A stretch of 64,000 nt of DNA from Lama glama (Eukaryota), in the NCBI GenBank assembly GCA_028534125.1, contig CM052816.1:13270001-13334000 (forward strand), in the 5' to 3' direction. The notes below the pieces were generated by a model. That model was not told where the DNA came from. It saw only the letters and a program-made list of their open reading frames with translations, and searched no databases. Positions 11,106 through 58,984 of this stretch are shown piece after piece (position 1 is the stretch's first letter; every line of letters starts with the position of its first letter). A program made the position numbers and the translations under genes.

Positions 11106-11226
11106 GGGGGAGGGTAACAGCTTAGTGGTATAGGGCGTGCTTGGCATGCACCAGGTCCTGGGTTCGGTGCGCAGTACCTCCGTTAAACACACACACACAC
11201 ACACACACACACACACACAAAACAAA
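11106..11226 (+). mobile_element. tRNA-derived SINE of Vic-1 type (camelid) with (AC)16 tail
   Basis: ggggagggtaacagcttagtggta..gcatgcaccaggtcctgggttc..cagtacctcc: A-box/B-box tRNA-like head; (AC)16 at 11187-11218. Confidence 0.85.
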
Positions 11227-14200
11227 GAGCAGCAATTATAATTATGAAGGTATGTATTTTTCAGTGAGGACAACTAATTCATTACCACAGGGTTTTCTTT
11301 TTCATTGTGTTTAAAATGCTGTTTTGAAGGTACTAGTCTGAAAGGTGAGAGAAAAAATCCATCGCATTCCCCTGTTTGTAGTTCATAGTATCTGCCTGAA
11401 TTCCTCTTTGTTAGTTCAGCTGTAAGGTGAGGATTTTAGTTTTCACTTAATAGGCAAAATGAGCATCTTTTGACTTTCTTCAGTTTCAGCTTCCTCATGT
11501 TGTCATACAGAAGAGTTGTTTTATTAAACGAACAGAACAGTGTTTTTTGTTTCTGGGTTTTTTTTTTTCCCATTGGTTAAAATTCAAAGGGAAAGTGAGG
11601 TTACAAATCTGAGAAATGGAGCTATTTCTACAAGAACTGTGTTTAATTATCAACCCATTAAATTTGAATTTTCTTTGTCAGTACTGTGCATAATCTTAGT
11701 ATCAAGCTATTTATCACATATTAACAAACACTTGCTGTCCTGTAGCAAATGCACTAGGAAGTACATTACATATATAAAGTAAAACTTTCAATCTTTTTAA
11801 TGAATAGCTGGTGATTTTTAGCCTTTGGGTTTAGAAGTGAGTGAGGCAGTGAGGAAATACCACTGCTGCCTCAGCATTATTTTGAGATCCTGTTTTTAAA
11901 ACTACATAATATTCAAGGCCATGCGTCTGGAACCTTTCCAGGGATTAACTTGTATACCAAAGCTATAATTTGATTTTATTTAAGTACTGATGGAAGTCTA
12001 CTTTAAACCTCAAACTCTAGTGAGGTCTTAGAAGTAATATGAGCACTCTGACCTACAACCACTCCTGGTACTCTGTGTATGTTTTTCTTGTTTGGGCTCC
12101 TAAGAGAGAAATTTAACCCAAGTGTGATGATCATTAACACTAAACTCCCCCTTCCCCTGCAAAAAAGAAATCTTACCAAGTAGTATAGGATAATTAGGAA
12201 GTTACGTTATTGGATAGAATTTGCACATGATGGTTTTTTTTTTTAAGAGATGAAAATTACGAGAAATACAGAAAAGTGAAAGACATGGCAGAAGAGTTAT
12301 TATTATAGGACCAAAGGTTGCAGGAACTAACACTGTAAAGTTAGCTGGGGAAAATGGACTTGAAACAGGGAGAAAAAAAAAAGAAACAGTCTAGCTCTGA
12401 GAGCCTAAATAATGCTCTATTTAGTGAAATGATTCACTCTGCCATTTGGGCTTGGGGATGGGGTGAAGTTACTGAGGAACTAGAGAACGGCTGTCATGAG
12501 ATGATTTGTTTAGGGTACGGTCCTAGTAAAAGATATCTCTGCAACCTACTGAAAACTTGGCTGTAGAAGCATGTAAGGAGGAAGCTAGAGAAGCCAAGTC
12601 CTACAGAGTAATGCTTTTGTCTCTTTTATAATATCTAGCTTCGGATGTTTCTGCGGTCTTACTAGCTTCTTGCTCTTTCCACAGAGGCTGTTGAATCTGT
12701 CATTTCTGTAGTTGGTCACCTTTTGACTACAGATACGTGGCTTTCAAAGTCCTTTTGCTTCCAAGGGCCTTCTGAGCTGGGGTTTGTTCCAAATGCTTGT
12801 TGGCTTGATTCTCGGGTGAAGTCGATGTTGACAAGGCATTCCCTCTATGTCTTTCGCTCATTTTAGCATTTATTGAACACACTGAGTGCAAGTTATGGTC
12901 TGAGGTTTTCAGTGGCAGTTGATATTATTGATGGCATGTAACCTTGGGAAGACACTGAGCGCGCAGCTGTAGCAGACGAGGGGTCCAAAAAACAAGGTAT
13001 CTGTTCCGTGCTTTTGCCTGAACTAGCCAATGTGGGTGGGGAAAGCTGGCTCTTCAGAGGGCAAGCAGTAGACATGCTTTCTGGGGGCAGAGCAGGAGCC
13101 ACTTATGGGAATCATTGTGTTACTCTTACCCACTTCTCTCCTGATAATCGGAATTCAGTTTTTTCTGTTTTCTACTCCTTCTGTGGGCATTCTATGTCTT
13201 TTCTTGCCTTTTTTCCTTATACTGTTTTCAGTCTTCAGGCTGAAAATTGCTTATTCAGAGGTTTCAGTTTAATTAAGTTCAATCCATTTTAAGATGGATA
13301 TTGTAGCCTTTAAAAGTGATATTAAACAGTTACTTTAAATGATTAGAGGGCATCCCCCCCATTCCAGTGATAAGCTATTTTAAGATTGTCTATTTTTTTT
13401 GAAGTCAAAAGTCTTTAGAATTTGACCGGAATTTTGTCAGAATCATCCAAAGGTTTCACACAATCTGTTTTCAGAAGCATTCTATTTTTTATAGTGCGAT
13501 ACATTTGTGATAAAGTTTCAATTGGGTGATGATAAAAGTCATACCCCTATTTCATATATAAACTTTATCACCATAGACAGACAGAACAAAAATACTCCTA
13601 TCAAAGAATTAAGCAACGATGCCCGCAAAGGTGTGACAAACTATAATAAATTGTAAGAGTAAAAATTTATAGAAAACGTAAATGTTCAGCAAAAAGAAAA
13701 TGATTGTTGAACATTGATGGGAACACAGACGATGGAATACTATGTTTACATGAACAGTTACAAGAACAATACATGAGGAAGTATTCACGAGTGTGGTAAA
13801 TGGGGTTAAAAACAATATCAAATTATAATAGTCTATGTACATAAATATTGTCTATTGAAGGGCAATTATTTGACTTTAAAATGCTGAGGTTATGGAAAGT
13901 AGATTAGAATAATTTGGAGCAGTATTCCAAGTAATACCACTGAGAATTTAATAAAGCTCATAAACCCCTCTCACTCTGCTGCTCTGTCTTGAAAAGACAC
14001 GCTGACTGTGTCTGTAGGCATTCATGCTCTGTGGCGTGATTGGTAGACAGGGAGTAAACAGCTTACTGTAAATGGGCACTCAGCCAGCTGGCTTCCAGCA
14101 GCAGCAAGCTTGTGATTTGCAGTCAGGGTTAGGAAAATGCCTTTTAACTTGTTCATTTCCGCTGCTTTTCAACATGGAAAAAAGGCACAACTGTACGGAT

Positions 14201-14582
14201 TTATTAAGTGCCTCATAAGGTCTTTAGGAATTCCTCGGAAGTTATTAGTACCGCTTCCCTGGATCTGAATACCTCTCACTTAACAATGACAAGGTTTTAA
14301 AAGGCAGTTTTAATCGTTAAGGATTTTTTTAATTGGCTTGCCCTCACCTTGTCTATTTGGAATTATATTCGGGGGTTTCTCTGACCTACGTTTGAAGAGT
14401 TCGATTGATTCTCCAGCACTATTTTGGGGAGAAAAACATTATATGATATTGAAATCTGAGTTTTTCTCTTTTTTTTTTGTTTTTTTTGTACTTAGATACG
14501 AGAAAGTCCAAAAACATCTTAGCAAAAGGGGAAAGACCTTACCTTTCCTCCAAAGATGTTTTATGCCCAAAGCAATTGTTTG

Positions 14583-56789: not shown

Positions 56790-56920
56790 GCAGAGAATGG
56801 CTTTACCCTGCATGTATGACCAATGTAAACATATGCTGTATGTTTCCTCTGAGTTACACAGGCTTCAGGTATCTTACGAAGAGTACCTCTGTATGAAAAC
56901 CTTACTGCTTCTCTCTTCAG
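56790..56920 (+). CDS. NR3C1: Glucocorticoid receptor exon 7 (LBD)
   Basis: Branch-point-like ctctaac at 56761, acceptor ttttcacag; translates (E)[43 protein letters not shown]; donor CAG|gttggt at 56921. 131 nt. Confidence 0.99.
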
Positions 56921-58984
56921 GTTGGTAGAACACCTCTTCGCTTCTAAATACATCCAAAGCGTGAACTACCAGCGTCTAGAAACAAAGGTGTATTGGTATA
57001 CAAAGCACTCAAAATTACACCAAGTCTACTACTACTTCCTGCTAGTCAGACACTGTGGATTTTCAACAATGTAAGATTTTAGAAAGGCACAGCCAGTGAT
57101 ACTAAGATTAATGAGAAATGAACAGGCATCTGAACCGCTGGGTGGGGATAGGGGAGGTCTCTGCTGATCTAGAATGCCTACAGACTTCCTCCTCCTTTCC
57201 TGTGACCTTTGGCAATACCACTATAGACGACATGGGAAAAGCAAGCCAACTAGGATGGCTTACGTTTCCCTACTTACTACACTGTCACTGGGTCAGAATT
57301 TTTCATGATGCGATGAATGCTACCATGTATAAGACATGGTGGGAGAAAAAGATACGACCTACAGAAGGGGTGCTTGATGACTGGTAGACGATTGCTTCCT
57401 GCGGCACTGCAGCTGGACTGTTAGAGGTAATCTATTTAGAAAAGAACAACAAGGGTTTAGAAAACAATCTTGAAAATTTATGTAAATTTATTGGTATATG
57501 ACGTTTACTGAGAGTAGTTTCAGCCAGCAAAGACATACTACAAGGCTACTGAAAACTATCTGCTCTGTATTAGTCAAAATGTGGCAGTTTCAACAACTAA
57601 TAAAAGAAGGTCTGTGAACAAGTTGGTATTATAAACTTTAGGCCACTCCAGTAAAAATGATCAGGTTAGTGTTTATACAATACTGGAGTCGATGGCTGAA
57701 TACCTCTTTGATATACAAGTAAGTACCTTTGCCATTTAAAGGAAAAAAACCTTCCTTCCGTTAGTAACTGTGGTTTCAAAGTACCTAAGTAACTTGGAGC
57801 CTTGGATGTTGCCCATGACTTTATCTACTGAAGCTTTTCCAAAGCACACATCCATCTTAATGCTCTCTTACTATCTTTGCTCTCCAAATGGAATTAAAGA
57901 GTATTAATAATATTTCAACCAAAGCAACAGAATTTTCCACAACCGATTAAAAAACCTAATTTTTCTAAGGTTATCAGCAGAAGTACTCTTGTTAAAGAAG
58001 TGAGCTTGATTTTATTCAAGGGAGTAAACAGTTCAAGTTCTGACCATGAATCGTGATTTTGATGGGTAACATCCAGGTATAGGTCAATACCTACATACTA
58101 TTGGTAAAAAAAAAAAAAAATTACAGTTTAAGGTTTATACATTCCAGGCTCACTGAGCTGCGTGTTTTTTTCATTCTAGATAGGAAAAAGTAATTTGAAG
58201 GCGTATTTGTCATTGGTTCCTTTAAAGAAAAAATACGATCACAAGGATGGTAATACATACCTAAAACCAGGTATAATATGAATTCCACTCTGACATAACA
58301 CTGACATAGGTATCCTAACCTCCCACTAAAAAATACTGAACTGAAAAAACTACAGACCAAGTATAGGCAAGTACTACCCCAAAGAGGCCAACTGCACTCC
58401 GAAGCTGCCTCTCTCAGAGGGTATCTGCAAAGCCTGGTGGATCAGTGTACTTAGCTAGTTTAAAGACAGGTGACATTGAAAAGAAATGGATCATGTATCT
58501 AAAGGCAGATTAGAAGATGGACTTGAAGACATTGAAAGTCAAATATATATCTGCAGAAATTAACCAGAATACTTTTTAAGGTGCCTATGTGTGTACCTGT
58601 ATTCATACTGATATACGGATGTGTACTATGTATTCATGTAAATGAACAAGGGCAAGAGGCATGATTGAGGAAGGACTAAAACACTGCTTCACAACTCTTT
58701 TCATGTCACAATTAACATAAAAACAGTATTCATACATAGCCCAATGAGGTGAATGAGTGAGGCCACTTGCAGCGAGCAAAGCAGACCGTTATCTAAACAC
58801 ATTGGCAACCTTTTCATAGTACATCCGTTGAAAAAAGGTCTAGCCTAATAATAATCATCAAATATCCAAAACCAAAGGTAAAAAAAATTACACAAAGAGA
58901 TGGAAACCTTCCAGAACAGCAGCAGTTCAAGAAAAAGGAATTTTTTTTTTAAGCTAAGGAAGCAAAGTGAAAAATGAGGGTGGA

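What the first reader, a model, noticed from the sequence alone, without database searches (positions are those of the whole stretch)
11106..58000. Substitution/composition strand asymmetry flips polarity at ~34-35 kb inside a single gene
Seen: left of the gap the + strand is G/T-leaning and right of it C/A-leaning. Illustrative hand counts, not a statistic: 27541-27600 has A10 C11 G17 T22; 37561-37620 has A19 C17 G7 T17. The two Vic-1 SINEs decay in mirror image. The left copy's B-box reads ggttcggtgcgcagt (A>G, C>G versus GGTTCAATCCCCAGT) and the right copy's reads gcttccatttccact (G>C). The Tigger1 left terminus at 38760 has also lost Gs. Established: transcription-coupled asymmetry gives A>G and G/T excess on the non-template strand, so the whole window should look like the left half. 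The right half, which holds the + strand exons, has the wrong sign. Inference, three alternatives: (a) a strong germline antisense transcript running through exons 8 to 3 and ending near 35 kb; (b) a long-lived double-strand-break/resection or fork-convergence centre near the gap, which exposes the + strand on the left and the - strand on the right; (c) a mis-oriented or mis-joined contig at the gap.
Basis: partly seen in the sequence, partly recalled or inferred. Interest (0 to 1): 0.8.

Follow-up and report, generated by a model that had tools for sequence, protein, structure and literature searches.

The report
Mid-gene strand-bias flip in NR3C1
Inside the glucocorticoid receptor gene of this camelid-like genome, the excess of G and T on one DNA strand switches to an excess of C at an assembly gap; the switch is real, not an assembly error, and comes partly from unusual C-to-G changes that hit opposite strands on the two sides.

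Summary
Left of the 500-N gap (34065-34564) the + strand has GC skew +0.070 and TA skew +0.140. Right of it the values are -0.065 and -0.050. Over 244 kb of surrounding sequence, cumulative G-C peaks 84 bp from the gap.

The mis-orientation reading is refuted. NR3C1 exon 2 and the promoter CpG island lie on the + strand in the same gap-free contig as the left half. Exons 3-9 follow in order on the + strand in the right contig.

The gap hides at least 3.9 kb of SNP-dense, CpG-rich sequence, and the two polarities continue into it.

The G/T-leaning domain starts at the promoter (about -29 kb). The C-leaning domain runs from 34.5 to about 54.5 kb (GC skew -0.097, TA skew 0).

Dated repeat copies show mirror-image C:G>G:C transversions:
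- Two repeats right of the gap show G>C 22 versus C>G 1.
- Repeats left of the gap show C>G 15 versus G>C 5.
- A>G and T>C are balanced on the left.

This resembles the oocyte C>G process 6/7.

Mechanism is unresolved. I favour convergent germline transcription from an unannotated antisense unit (about 0.38). Replication-fork convergence (about 0.28) and a break-prone hot zone (about 0.12) remain open.

The parts
1..34064 (.). Right-hand 34 kb of a G/T-leaning domain of about 63 kb that begins about 29 kb upstream of the window, at the NR3C1 promoter. It lies within intron 2.
   Evidence: GC skew +0.070, TA skew +0.140. After masking, +0.081/+0.065. Segmentation places the domain start at -29 kb. 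The promoter CpG island is at -25..-22 kb.
34065..34564 (.). 500-N scaffold gap standing in for at least 3.9 kb of unplaced, SNP-dense, CpG-rich sequence. The polarity switch lies inside it.
   Evidence: N run. Walks through unplaced contigs reach 1578 bp from the left edge (GC skew +0.113) and 2338 bp from the right edge (GC skew -0.139) without overlapping. There are 21 variable sites in the bubble contigs.
34565..54500 (.). C-leaning domain (R1) with negative GC skew and no TA skew. It covers the end of intron 2 and exons 3-6.
   Evidence: Mean GC skew -0.096 over 40 bins, bounded by breakpoints at 34.5 and 54.5 kb. The unmasked part reads -0.097/0.000.
54501..64000 (.). Start of an A-leaning domain (GC skew near 0, TA skew negative) that continues to at least 144 kb.
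   Evidence: TA-skew segment 36.5-144 kb has mean -0.064 with no further breakpoint. It holds a sense-oriented L1 at about 58-62 kb.
28501..49000 (.). Zone of raised CpG content and raised G+C straddling the flip.
   Evidence: CpG o/e is 0.556 (28.5-34 kb) and 0.529 (34.5-49 kb), against 0.27-0.38 elsewhere. GC is 0.44-0.46 against 0.38-0.40.
39129..40244 (-). Old L1 3' fragment that carries the G>C excess on the genomic + strand.
   Evidence: G>C 18 versus C>G 1 among 129 polarised changes at 879 sites, or 11.0 versus 0.6 per 100 bases. None of the 18 sites had a CpG as ancestral context.
   Evidence: G>C 4, C>G 0 against the column majority of 5 other copies. B-box string at 41180.
   Evidence: C>G 3, G>C 1; A>G 6, T>C 3. 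B-box string at 11161.
20313..24793 (-). Long antisense L1 with open frames up to 366 aa. It is the main cause of the local TA-skew peak.
   Evidence: ORFs on the - strand, tblastn map, TA skew +0.389 over 20-25 kb.
40850..40957 (+). NR3C1 exon 3 (first zinc finger).
   Evidence: zf-C4 profile positions 1-36, E = 9e-13.
46855..46965 (+). NR3C1 exon 4 (second zinc finger).
   Evidence: zf-C4 profile positions 33-69, E = 3.3e-12.
53001..53156 (+). NR3C1 exon 6 (ligand-binding domain).
   Evidence: Hormone_recep profile positions 30-81, E = 4.5e-9.
56803..56913 (+). NR3C1 exon 7.
   Evidence: Hormone_recep profile positions 97-143, E = 1.1e-4, just below Pfam's cut-off.
63533..63706 (+). NR3C1 exon 8.
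   Evidence: Hormone_recep profile positions 147-204, E = 9.5e-4, below Pfam's cut-off. The collinear order supports the assignment.

Best explanation
Shown. The flip is a property of the genome, not of the scaffold. It is the junction of two oppositely polarised domains of strand-asymmetric sequence change inside NR3C1. The left domain starts at the promoter and has the polarity expected for sense transcription. The right domain (34.5 to about 54.5 kb) has the opposite polarity. In the repeats that can be dated, the asymmetric substitution class is C:G>G:C transversion. It removes C from the + strand on the left and C from the - strand on the right.

Inferred. The same lesion-prone, 'exposed' strand state sits on the + strand left of the gap and on the - strand right of it. 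I think the likeliest cause is convergent germline transcription. NR3C1 sense transcription would write the left domain. An unannotated antisense unit would start near exons 5-6 or further downstream, run back through exons 4 and 3, and end in intron 2 near the gap, writing the right domain. The chemistry would be that of the oocyte C>G process 6/7, which raises C>G on the non-transcribed strand and lowers it on the transcribed strand.
For: Not an artefact:
- Exon 2 (GCR domain) and the promoter CpG island are on the + strand in the N-free contig -35030..34064.
- Exons 3-9 are collinear on the + strand in contig 34565..89827.
- Each polarity continues into unplaced contigs that extend each gap edge: +0.113 over 1578 bp and -0.139 over 2338 bp.

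Transcription-like shape on the left:
- Total skew is about 0 upstream (+0.023), steps up at -29 kb beside the CpG island, and shows no ramp.
- Poly-T runs outnumber poly-A runs 19 to 4 in the 5' part of the gene (p = 0.0026). The 5 L1 pieces mapped by tblastn between -36 kb and the gap are all antisense to the gene.

In-situ polarity on the right:
- An L1 in - orientation shows G>C 18 versus C>G 1, and a SINE in + orientation shows 4 versus 0. Both are on the genomic + strand, so the bias follows the genome strand rather than the element.
- Left-domain repeats show C>G 12 versus G>C 4, plus 3 versus 1 in the SINE.
- In pairwise repeat comparisons against upstream copies, the left domain has G where upstream has C 128 times and the reverse 63 times. 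The right domain has C where upstream has G 153 times and the reverse 76 times (my sums of the rows; copies are reused, so these are not independent).
- A net G>C shift of about 10% of G matches GC skew -0.097 with TA skew 0 in the unmasked right domain.

Precedent: Seplyarskiy et al. 2021 (PMC9217108, passages read). Process 6/7 is dominated by C>G, forms local spikes, is of maternal origin, and is raised on the non-transcribed strand and lowered on the transcribed strand.
Against: - There is no RNA evidence at all.
- I identified no promoter for an antisense unit.
- If sense transcription writes the left domain, positive GC skew should resume after 54.5 kb. It does not: the mean is -0.006. 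Sense transcription in the relevant cell would therefore have to stop or be outweighed.
- The classical transcription signature (A>G over T>C) is absent from the left-domain repeats (5.3 versus 5.1 per 100 bases).
- The strong right-side count rests on two repeats within 2 kb of each other (39.1-41.2 kb).
- L-L opposite-orientation repeat pairs gave no signal (38 versus 36) and R-R pairs only a non-significant trend (52 versus 69).
- The negative TA skew continues for more than 100 kb past the gene. An antisense unit of 20 kb does not explain that. It tracks sense-oriented L1s and poly-A runs instead.
- Process 6/7 also correlates with replication direction in the same paper.
Confidence: 0.38

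Rival explanations
1. Replication-fork convergence. Forks started upstream of the NR3C1 promoter travel rightwards through the 5' part of the gene. Forks from a downstream zone travel leftwards through the 3' part. They meet habitually in intron 2. The lagging-strand template would then be the + strand on the left and the - strand on the right, which flips the mutational asymmetry and the retroposon orientation together.
For: - The polarity fits: G/T excess on the leading strand, recalled from the N-domain literature and restated in Petryk et al. 2016 (PMC4729899, passages read).
- Nucleotide skew and retroposon orientation (poly-T:poly-A 19:4 on the left, 2:6 and 6:14 on the right) flip together.
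- The negative TA skew runs for more than 100 kb with no breakpoint.
- Process 6/7 asymmetry also correlates with replication direction (PMC9217108).
Against: - Skew upstream of the promoter is about 0, not negative, and shows no ascending ramp.
- The switch is a step, not the dispersed ramp described for termination zones.
- The negative GC skew ends at 54.5 kb while the TA skew goes on, so one fork direction does not explain both.
- The amplitudes (total skew +0.13 to +0.20 and about -0.10) are larger than the roughly 0.07 I recall for replication skew.
Confidence: 0.28
2. A long-lived break-prone or recombination hot zone centred on the gap. After a break, 5'-3' resection exposes the + strand on the left and the - strand on the right. 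If break density is bell-shaped over tens of kb, the net asymmetry follows its gradient: positive on the rising flank, negative on the falling flank, with the flip at the peak.
For: - Hinch et al. 2023 (PMC7615360, passages read) report C>N and A>N on the exposed forward strand left of hotspot centres and the complements on the right, with off-centre C>G peaks.
- Here C is lost from the + strand on the left and from the - strand on the right.
- The centre is unusually variable: 21 variable sites in about 1.8 kb of bubble contigs.
- G+C and CpG o/e peak around the flip, as biased gene conversion would predict.
- This reading would also explain why the assembly broke exactly there.
Against: - The published asymmetry spans about 2 kb per side. 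Here it spans about 20 kb on the right and up to 63 kb on the left, with a sharp start at the promoter.
- Skew magnitude does not decay with distance from the gap.
- The gradient argument is my own inference and is untested.
- Seplyarskiy et al. argue that the C>G process is poorly explained by double-strand breaks.
- C/G polymorphisms are only 3 of the 21 variable sites.
Confidence: 0.12
3. No polar process. The two halves merely differ in their mix of ancient, unrecognised repeats and regulatory sequence, whose own composition and orientation give the skews.
For: - My mask covers only 18.9% of bases, far less than a mammalian repeat content.
- TA skew is clearly driven in part by L1 orientation: +0.389 over the antisense L1 at 20-25 kb, and masked parts read +0.31.
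- In the downstream domains C>T exceeds G>A on the + strand, opposite to the compositional TA skew there. That points to insertion orientation rather than point mutation.
Against: - GC skew is the same in the masked and unmasked parts of the right domain (-0.097 in both) and is pervasive: 10 of the 13 bins next to the gap are negative and 11 of the 12 bins on the left are positive.
- Two elements of opposite orientation carry the same genomic-strand G>C excess.
- Same-orientation repeat pairs across the flip differ 147 to 63 in the predicted direction.
Confidence: 0.1
4. Scaffolding artefact: one contig is inverted or misplaced at the gap.
For: The breakpoint falls within 100 bp of a 500-N gap. 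The GC skews of the two halves are near mirror images. The assembly is a chromosome-scale scaffold set with 1,072,352 contigs. As I recall, 500-N gaps are typical of Hi-C scaffolders that make local inversions.
Against: - Exon 2 and the promoter are on the + strand in the left contig, and exons 3-9 are in order on the + strand in the right contig.
- Neither contig's far edge matches the other's walk.
- The walks meet only unique, unplaced contigs.
- What remains possible is missing sequence, not inversion.
Confidence: 0.03

Closest known systems
Germline mutational process 6/7 of Seplyarskiy et al. 2021 (oocyte-linked, C>G-dominated, strand-asymmetric; PMC9217108, passages read)
   Same: C:G>G:C is the asymmetric class. 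It is raised on one strand and lowered on the other (11.0 versus 0.6 per 100 bases, against a baseline of 1.1-1.7). It is local rather than genome-wide. On the left the favoured strand is the non-transcribed strand of the gene.
   Different: That process was defined from human polymorphism and de novo mutations, not from base composition. Here it is seen as fixed changes and as a GC skew with no TA skew, and its polarity switches in the middle of one gene. Maternal origin and age dependence cannot be tested here.
Transcription-coupled strand asymmetry of mammalian introns (Green et al. 2003; Touchon et al. 2003; recalled, not read here)
   Same: G+T excess on the sense strand, beginning at the promoter, in the 5' 58 kb of the gene.
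   Different: The sign reverses for the 3' part of the same gene. A>G and T>C are balanced in the left-domain repeats.
Replication skew domains, and termination zones inside active genes (Petryk et al. 2016, PMC4729899, passages read)
   Same: A plus-to-minus change of skew is what converging forks predict. Termination within transcribed gene bodies is described.
   Different: Described termination is dispersive and skew declines as a ramp. Here it is a step within an unsequenced stretch of at least 3.9 kb, and there is no negative skew upstream of the supposed origin.
Strand asymmetry flanking meiotic break hotspots (Hinch et al. 2023, PMC7615360, passages read)
   Same: Same left/right polarity, C>G involvement, and a variable centre.
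   Different: The scale is tens of kb rather than about 2 kb per side. No hotspot map or PRDM9 motif was tested.

Membership tests
Scaffold mis-orientation | Gene parts on the two contigs are in inconsistent order or on inconsistent strands | tested here: not met
   GCR (exon 2), then zf-C4 positions 1-36, zf-C4 33-69, and Hormone_recep 30-81, 97-143 and 147-204, all on the + strand and in order across the gap.
Scaffold mis-orientation | A gap edge joins to the far end of the neighbouring contig | tested here: not met
   The walk contigs match only the two gap edges within the first 164 kb fetched (100 kb upstream plus the window). The walks did not close the gap either, so adjacency itself is unproven.
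Transcription-coupled strand asymmetry | G+T excess on the sense strand along the whole transcription unit | tested here: not met
   Met from -29 kb to 34 kb. Reversed from 34.5 kb to the gene's end.
Transcription-coupled strand asymmetry | Step at the transcription start | tested here: met
   The total-skew breakpoint is at -29 kb and the CpG island at -25..-22 kb.
Transcription-coupled strand asymmetry | A>G exceeds T>C on the non-transcribed strand | tested here: not met
   5.3 versus 5.1 per 100 ancestral bases in left-domain repeats (34 and 57 raw counts over 640 A and 1124 T). Power is modest.
Replication skew (N-domain type) | Upward jump from negative to positive at the origin, then a gradual decline | tested here: not met
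   Skew goes from about 0 upstream to positive, then falls in a step rather than a ramp.
Replication skew (N-domain type) | Measured fork direction changes at the site | not testable with these tools
   No fork-direction data are available.
Process 6/7 (oocyte C>G) | C>G is the dominant, strand-asymmetric class | tested here: met
   It is the only class with a large asymmetry in R1 (18 versus 1) and in L (12 versus 4). However, it makes up only 19 of the 129 changes in R1.
Process 6/7 (oocyte C>G) | Higher on the non-transcribed strand of a transcribed unit | tested here: inconclusive
   True for NR3C1 on the left. On the right it would require an antisense transcript, which I could not test.
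Process 6/7 (oocyte C>G) | Maternal origin and maternal-age dependence | not testable with these tools
   This needs pedigree data.
Meiotic hotspot flank asymmetry | C>N and A>N on the forward strand on the left, with the complements on the right | tested here: inconclusive
   Met for C/G. For A/T, the first count of the right-side L1 fragment gave T>N 45 versus A>N 16. The stricter, base-normalised count is mixed for that fragment (T>C 9.2 versus A>G 7.0, but A>C 7.4 versus T>G 4.6) and shows no A/T asymmetry on the left.
Meiotic hotspot flank asymmetry | Confined to about 2 kb on each side of a hotspot centre | tested here: not met
   The domains are about 20 kb and about 63 kb long.

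The most novel reading that the evidence does not exclude
NR3C1 intron 2 holds a long-lived, localised zone of germline DNA damage or breakage, or a collision zone of converging polymerases. 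This zone writes C>G transversions on whichever strand is exposed, in mirror image, for about 20 kb or more on each side. Over evolutionary time it has built a GC-skew switch, extra CpG and G+C, and a hypervariable centre that defeats short-read assembly. The compositional footprint of the oocyte C>G process would then be readable directly from a single genome.
Probability: 0.15. Interest if true: 0.75.

Novelty: new variant of a known kind. Interest (0 to 1): 0.5.

Why it matters
Strand asymmetries are a record of what the germline does to DNA: transcription, replication and repair. A sharp polarity switch inside a ubiquitously expressed gene, written mainly by C:G>G:C transversions, gives one defined locus at which to test the competing causes of the oocyte C>G process (transcription, fork direction or breaks), using stranded RNA, fork-direction and break maps.

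There is also a practical lesson for assembly checking. A skew flip exactly at a scaffold gap looks like an inversion but need not be one. Here gene order shows the join is correctly oriented, and the gap probably exists because the flip centre is hypervariable.

I found no paper describing a skew flip or an antisense transcript at NR3C1. This rests on the listings only, and the library is incomplete.

Tried and rejected
- Closing the gap. I walked through unplaced contigs using 10 own-genome searches and 3 small fetches. The walks reached 1578 bp from the left and 2338 bp from the right without meeting. The right walk ends at a contig whose only continuation is an 86%-identical allele beside a dispersed repeat. 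The left walk continues into more bubbles.
- Inverted duplication around the gap. This would give a flip by construction, but self-BLAST of the window found none.
- Coding or retroviral remnants in the gap contigs. 0 of 53 open frames of 45 aa or more matched Pfam.
- CpG-context transversions (process 9 of PMC9217108). None of the 18 G>C sites in the L1 fragment had a CpG as ancestral context, and only 2 now form a CpG.
- APOBEC-type context. About 7 of the 16 G>C sites with a known ancestral 3' base are TpC on the - strand, which is not a clear enrichment.
- Earlier notes of this scan. There were none for this genome and none on NR3C1. The 'GC skew' notes concern other genomes, mostly microbial, and I did not use them.
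- Literature. Searches for an NR3C1 antisense RNA or an intron 2 hotspot gave nothing relevant.
- Wider genome sampling.

Full report
**What is there.** The window is G000:C1:13270001-13334000 of a 2.35-Gb assembly with 1,072,352 contigs. It has one N run, 34065-34564.

Stop-to-stop frames on the + strand carry the glucocorticoid receptor exons. Pfam confirms them in order:
- zf-C4 profile positions 1-36 at about 40.85 kb
- zf-C4 positions 33-69 at about 46.9 kb
- Hormone_recep positions 30-81 at about 53.0 kb
- Hormone_recep positions 97-143 at about 56.8 kb
- Hormone_recep positions 147-204 at about 63.6 kb

The exon 5 frame at about 51.7-52.1 kb and the C-terminal frame of the last coding exon at 64235-64384, just outside the window, are recognisable by eye but had no Pfam hit.

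| Region | GC skew | TA skew | Source |
|---|---|---|---|
| Left of the gap, 1-34064 | +0.070 | +0.140 | |
| Right of the gap, 34565-64000 | -0.065 | -0.050 | |
| Left, unmasked part | +0.081 | +0.065 | |
| Right, unmasked part | -0.069 | -0.042 | |

- In 500-bp bins the halves differ with Mann-Whitney p = 1.6e-8 for GC skew and 5.7e-10 for TA skew.
- Cumulative G-C peaks at 33981, which is 84 bp from the gap.
- I fetched 100 kb upstream and 80 kb downstream. Position 33981 remains the global maximum over all 244 kb. Cumulative T-A peaks at 36540.
- Segmentation puts its strongest breakpoint at the gap.
- The mask covered self-similar repeats, protein-detectable L1, low-complexity sequence and exons, 18.9% of bases in all. 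That is well short of a proper repeat mask.

**It is not a mis-oriented contig.** In window coordinates the neighbouring N runs are at -46359..-45860, -35130..-35031 and 89828..90327.
- The left half of the window therefore belongs to an N-free stretch, -35030..34064.
- That stretch also holds a 403-aa + strand frame at -20317..-19109. The 297 residues of it that lie in one fetched locus match the glucocorticoid-receptor N-terminal domain, PF02155, at E = 7.7e-154.
- It also holds a CpG island at -25..-22 kb, with GC up to 0.76 and CpG o/e up to 0.99.
- So exon 2 and the promoter sit on the + strand left of the gap, and exons 3-9 sit on the + strand to its right. Inverting either contig would break the gene.

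**The gap.** Unplaced contigs of 200-1600 bp overlap both gap edges by 42-199 identical bases.
- Following them, I extended the left edge by 1578 bp and the right edge by 2338 bp without the two walks meeting. The 500 N therefore stand for at least 3.9 kb.
- The contigs come in sets of two or four that differ at single bases: 21 variable sites in about 1.8 kb. The contig break is probably a run of heterozygous sites closer together than the assembler's word length. That last point is my inference.
- The left walk keeps the left polarity (GC skew +0.113, TA +0.118, CpG o/e 0.71). The right walk keeps the right polarity (-0.139, -0.022, 0.49). The switch therefore lies in sequence that is still missing.
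- None of 53 open frames in these contigs matches Pfam.

**Shape of the domains**.
- Total skew is about 0 from -100 to -29 kb (+0.023), then steps up beside the promoter.
- It stays at +0.13 to +0.20 as far as the gap. It reaches +0.46 over an antisense L1 at 20-25 kb.
- It is -0.085 on average from the gap to 144 kb.

The two component skews behave differently.
- GC skew is -0.096 from 34.5 to 54.5 kb and about 0 beyond that.
- TA skew changes sign at 36.5 kb and stays at -0.064 to at least 144 kb, well past the end of the gene. The coding sequence ends at 64384. The 3' UTR length is my estimate.
- In the unmasked part of 34.5-54.5 kb, GC skew is -0.097 and TA skew is 0.000.

The TA component follows retroposon orientation.
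- Poly-T to poly-A runs of 10 or more are 19:4 in the 5' part of the gene (p = 0.0026), 2:6 in the 3' part and 6:14 downstream.
- The 5 L1 pieces mapped by tblastn between -36 kb and the gap are all on the - strand. From 54.5 to 90 kb most are on the + strand: 5 of 7.

A zone from about 28.5 to 49 kb also has raised CpG o/e (0.53-0.56 against 0.27-0.38) and raised G+C.

**What kind of change writes the GC skew.** I compared repeat copies within the 244 kb.

Pairwise comparison:
- Same-orientation pairs with one copy on each side of the flip differ 147 to 63 in the direction 'G/T on the left, C/A on the right' (p = 6.5e-9). This rests on only 4 alignments.
- Opposite-orientation pairs across the flip differ 595 to 494.
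- Pairs within one domain gave little signal: L-L opposite 38 versus 36, R-R opposite 52 versus 69.

Polarising each copy against the column majority of at least 3 other copies, per 100 ancestral bases:

| Domain | C>G | G>C | A>G | T>C |
|---|---|---|---|---|
| Upstream | 1.1 | 1.7 | 4.3 | 4.2 |
| Left | 2.6 (12 events) | 0.9 (4 events) | 5.3 | 5.1 |
| Right, 34.5-56 kb | 0.6 (1 event) | 11.0 (18 events) | 7.0 | 9.2 |

- All 18 right-side G>C events lie in one L1 fragment, 39129-40244, spread over 900 bp. None is in an ancestral CpG.
The left-hand SINE adds C>G 3, G>C 1.
- The L1 is in - orientation and the SINE in + orientation, yet both lose G to C on the genomic + strand. The bias therefore belongs to the locus, not to the elements.
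- Converting about 10% of G to C is what a GC skew of about -0.09 with no TA skew requires. The same process can therefore account for the unique DNA too. That step is inference.
- Caveats: few elements, reuse of copies across comparisons, and majority polarisation that mis-assigns decayed CpGs.

**How it may work.** Three polar processes put the 'exposed' strand on the + strand to the left and the - strand to the right: converging transcription, converging replication forks, and resection away from a break.

- *Published match for the chemistry.* The nearest match is process 6/7 of Seplyarskiy et al. 2021 (PMC9217108, passages read). It is C>G-dominated, forms local spikes, is of maternal origin, is lowered on the transcribed strand and raised on the non-transcribed strand, and has a weaker link to replication direction.
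- *Convergent transcription.* On this reading the left domain is NR3C1 sense transcription, and its step at the promoter fits. The right domain would then need an antisense unit ending near the gap. I rank this first at about 0.38, but there is no RNA evidence, and positive skew does not resume after 54.5 kb.
- *Fork convergence inside an active gene.* This is an established pattern (Petryk et al. 2016, PMC4729899, passages read). It would also flip retroposon orientation. However, the step shape and the lack of negative skew upstream count against it. I put it at about 0.28.
- *Break-prone hot zone.* This fits the polarity and C>G involvement reported by Hinch et al. 2023 (PMC7615360, passages read), the variable centre and the local G+C and CpG peak. 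The published scale, though, is about 2 kb per side. I put it at about 0.12. My gradient argument for a broad zone is untested.
- *Passive repeat or regulatory composition.* About 0.10.
- *Assembly error.* About 0.03.

**Recalled, not checked here.**
- The sign and size of transcription and replication skews in human introns (Green 2003; Touchon 2003, 2005).
- The use of 500-N gaps by Hi-C scaffolders.
- The convergent ARHGAP26 neighbour of NR3C1 in human.
- A human intron 2 of about 80 kb.

**Verdict.** It is neither an inversion artefact nor the classical A>G transcription signature. It is best filed as an unusual, mid-gene, mirror-image instance of a C>G-type strand-asymmetric germline process, and its driver still has to be measured.

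Noticed in passing
window 34065-34564, and loci L002-L038, L057-L060: The 500-N gap stands for at least 3.9 kb. The missing DNA exists in the assembly as dozens of unplaced 200-1600 bp contigs, in allelic sets that differ at single bases. Much of the assembly's 1.07 million contigs may be such bubble branches.
   Followed up: yes
window 28501-49000: About 20 kb with CpG o/e 0.53-0.56 and few retroposons (poly-A/T runs 2 and 1 between 34.5 and 54.5 kb). It includes exons 3 and 4. This may be a germline-hypomethylated regulatory block. The L1 fragment inside it keeps 22 CpGs at 879 polarised sites, more per base than four other L1 pieces and slightly more than the fifth (2.5 versus 1.9 per 100 bp).
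   Followed up: partly
upstream of the window, about -24 kb to window 34064: Poly-T runs outnumber poly-A runs 19 to 4, and the 5 L1 pieces mapped by tblastn between -36 kb and the gap are all antisense to NR3C1. This orientation bias looks stronger than I recall for typical genes.
   Followed up: partly
window 58000-62100: A sense-oriented L1 remnant in intron 7, the opposite orientation to the L1s in intron 2. It accounts for the A-rich stretch there (AT skew up to +0.28).
   Followed up: partly
window 11190-11225 and 36629-36678: (CA)n microsatellites. The first directly follows the left SINE head where an A-tail would be expected.
   Followed up: no
G000:C251794, allele of C261638 at the far end of the right-hand walk: The allelic contig is only 86% identical over the last 220 bases and 35 bp longer, beside a dispersed repeat. 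There may be an indel or repeat-length polymorphism inside the gap.
   Followed up: no
downstream loci L049-L056, about 56-144 kb in window coordinates: In the repeats of these domains C>T exceeds G>A on the + strand (46:30 and 12:3). This is opposite in sign to the A-rich composition there, so the negative TA skew looks like insertion orientation rather than point mutation.
   Followed up: no
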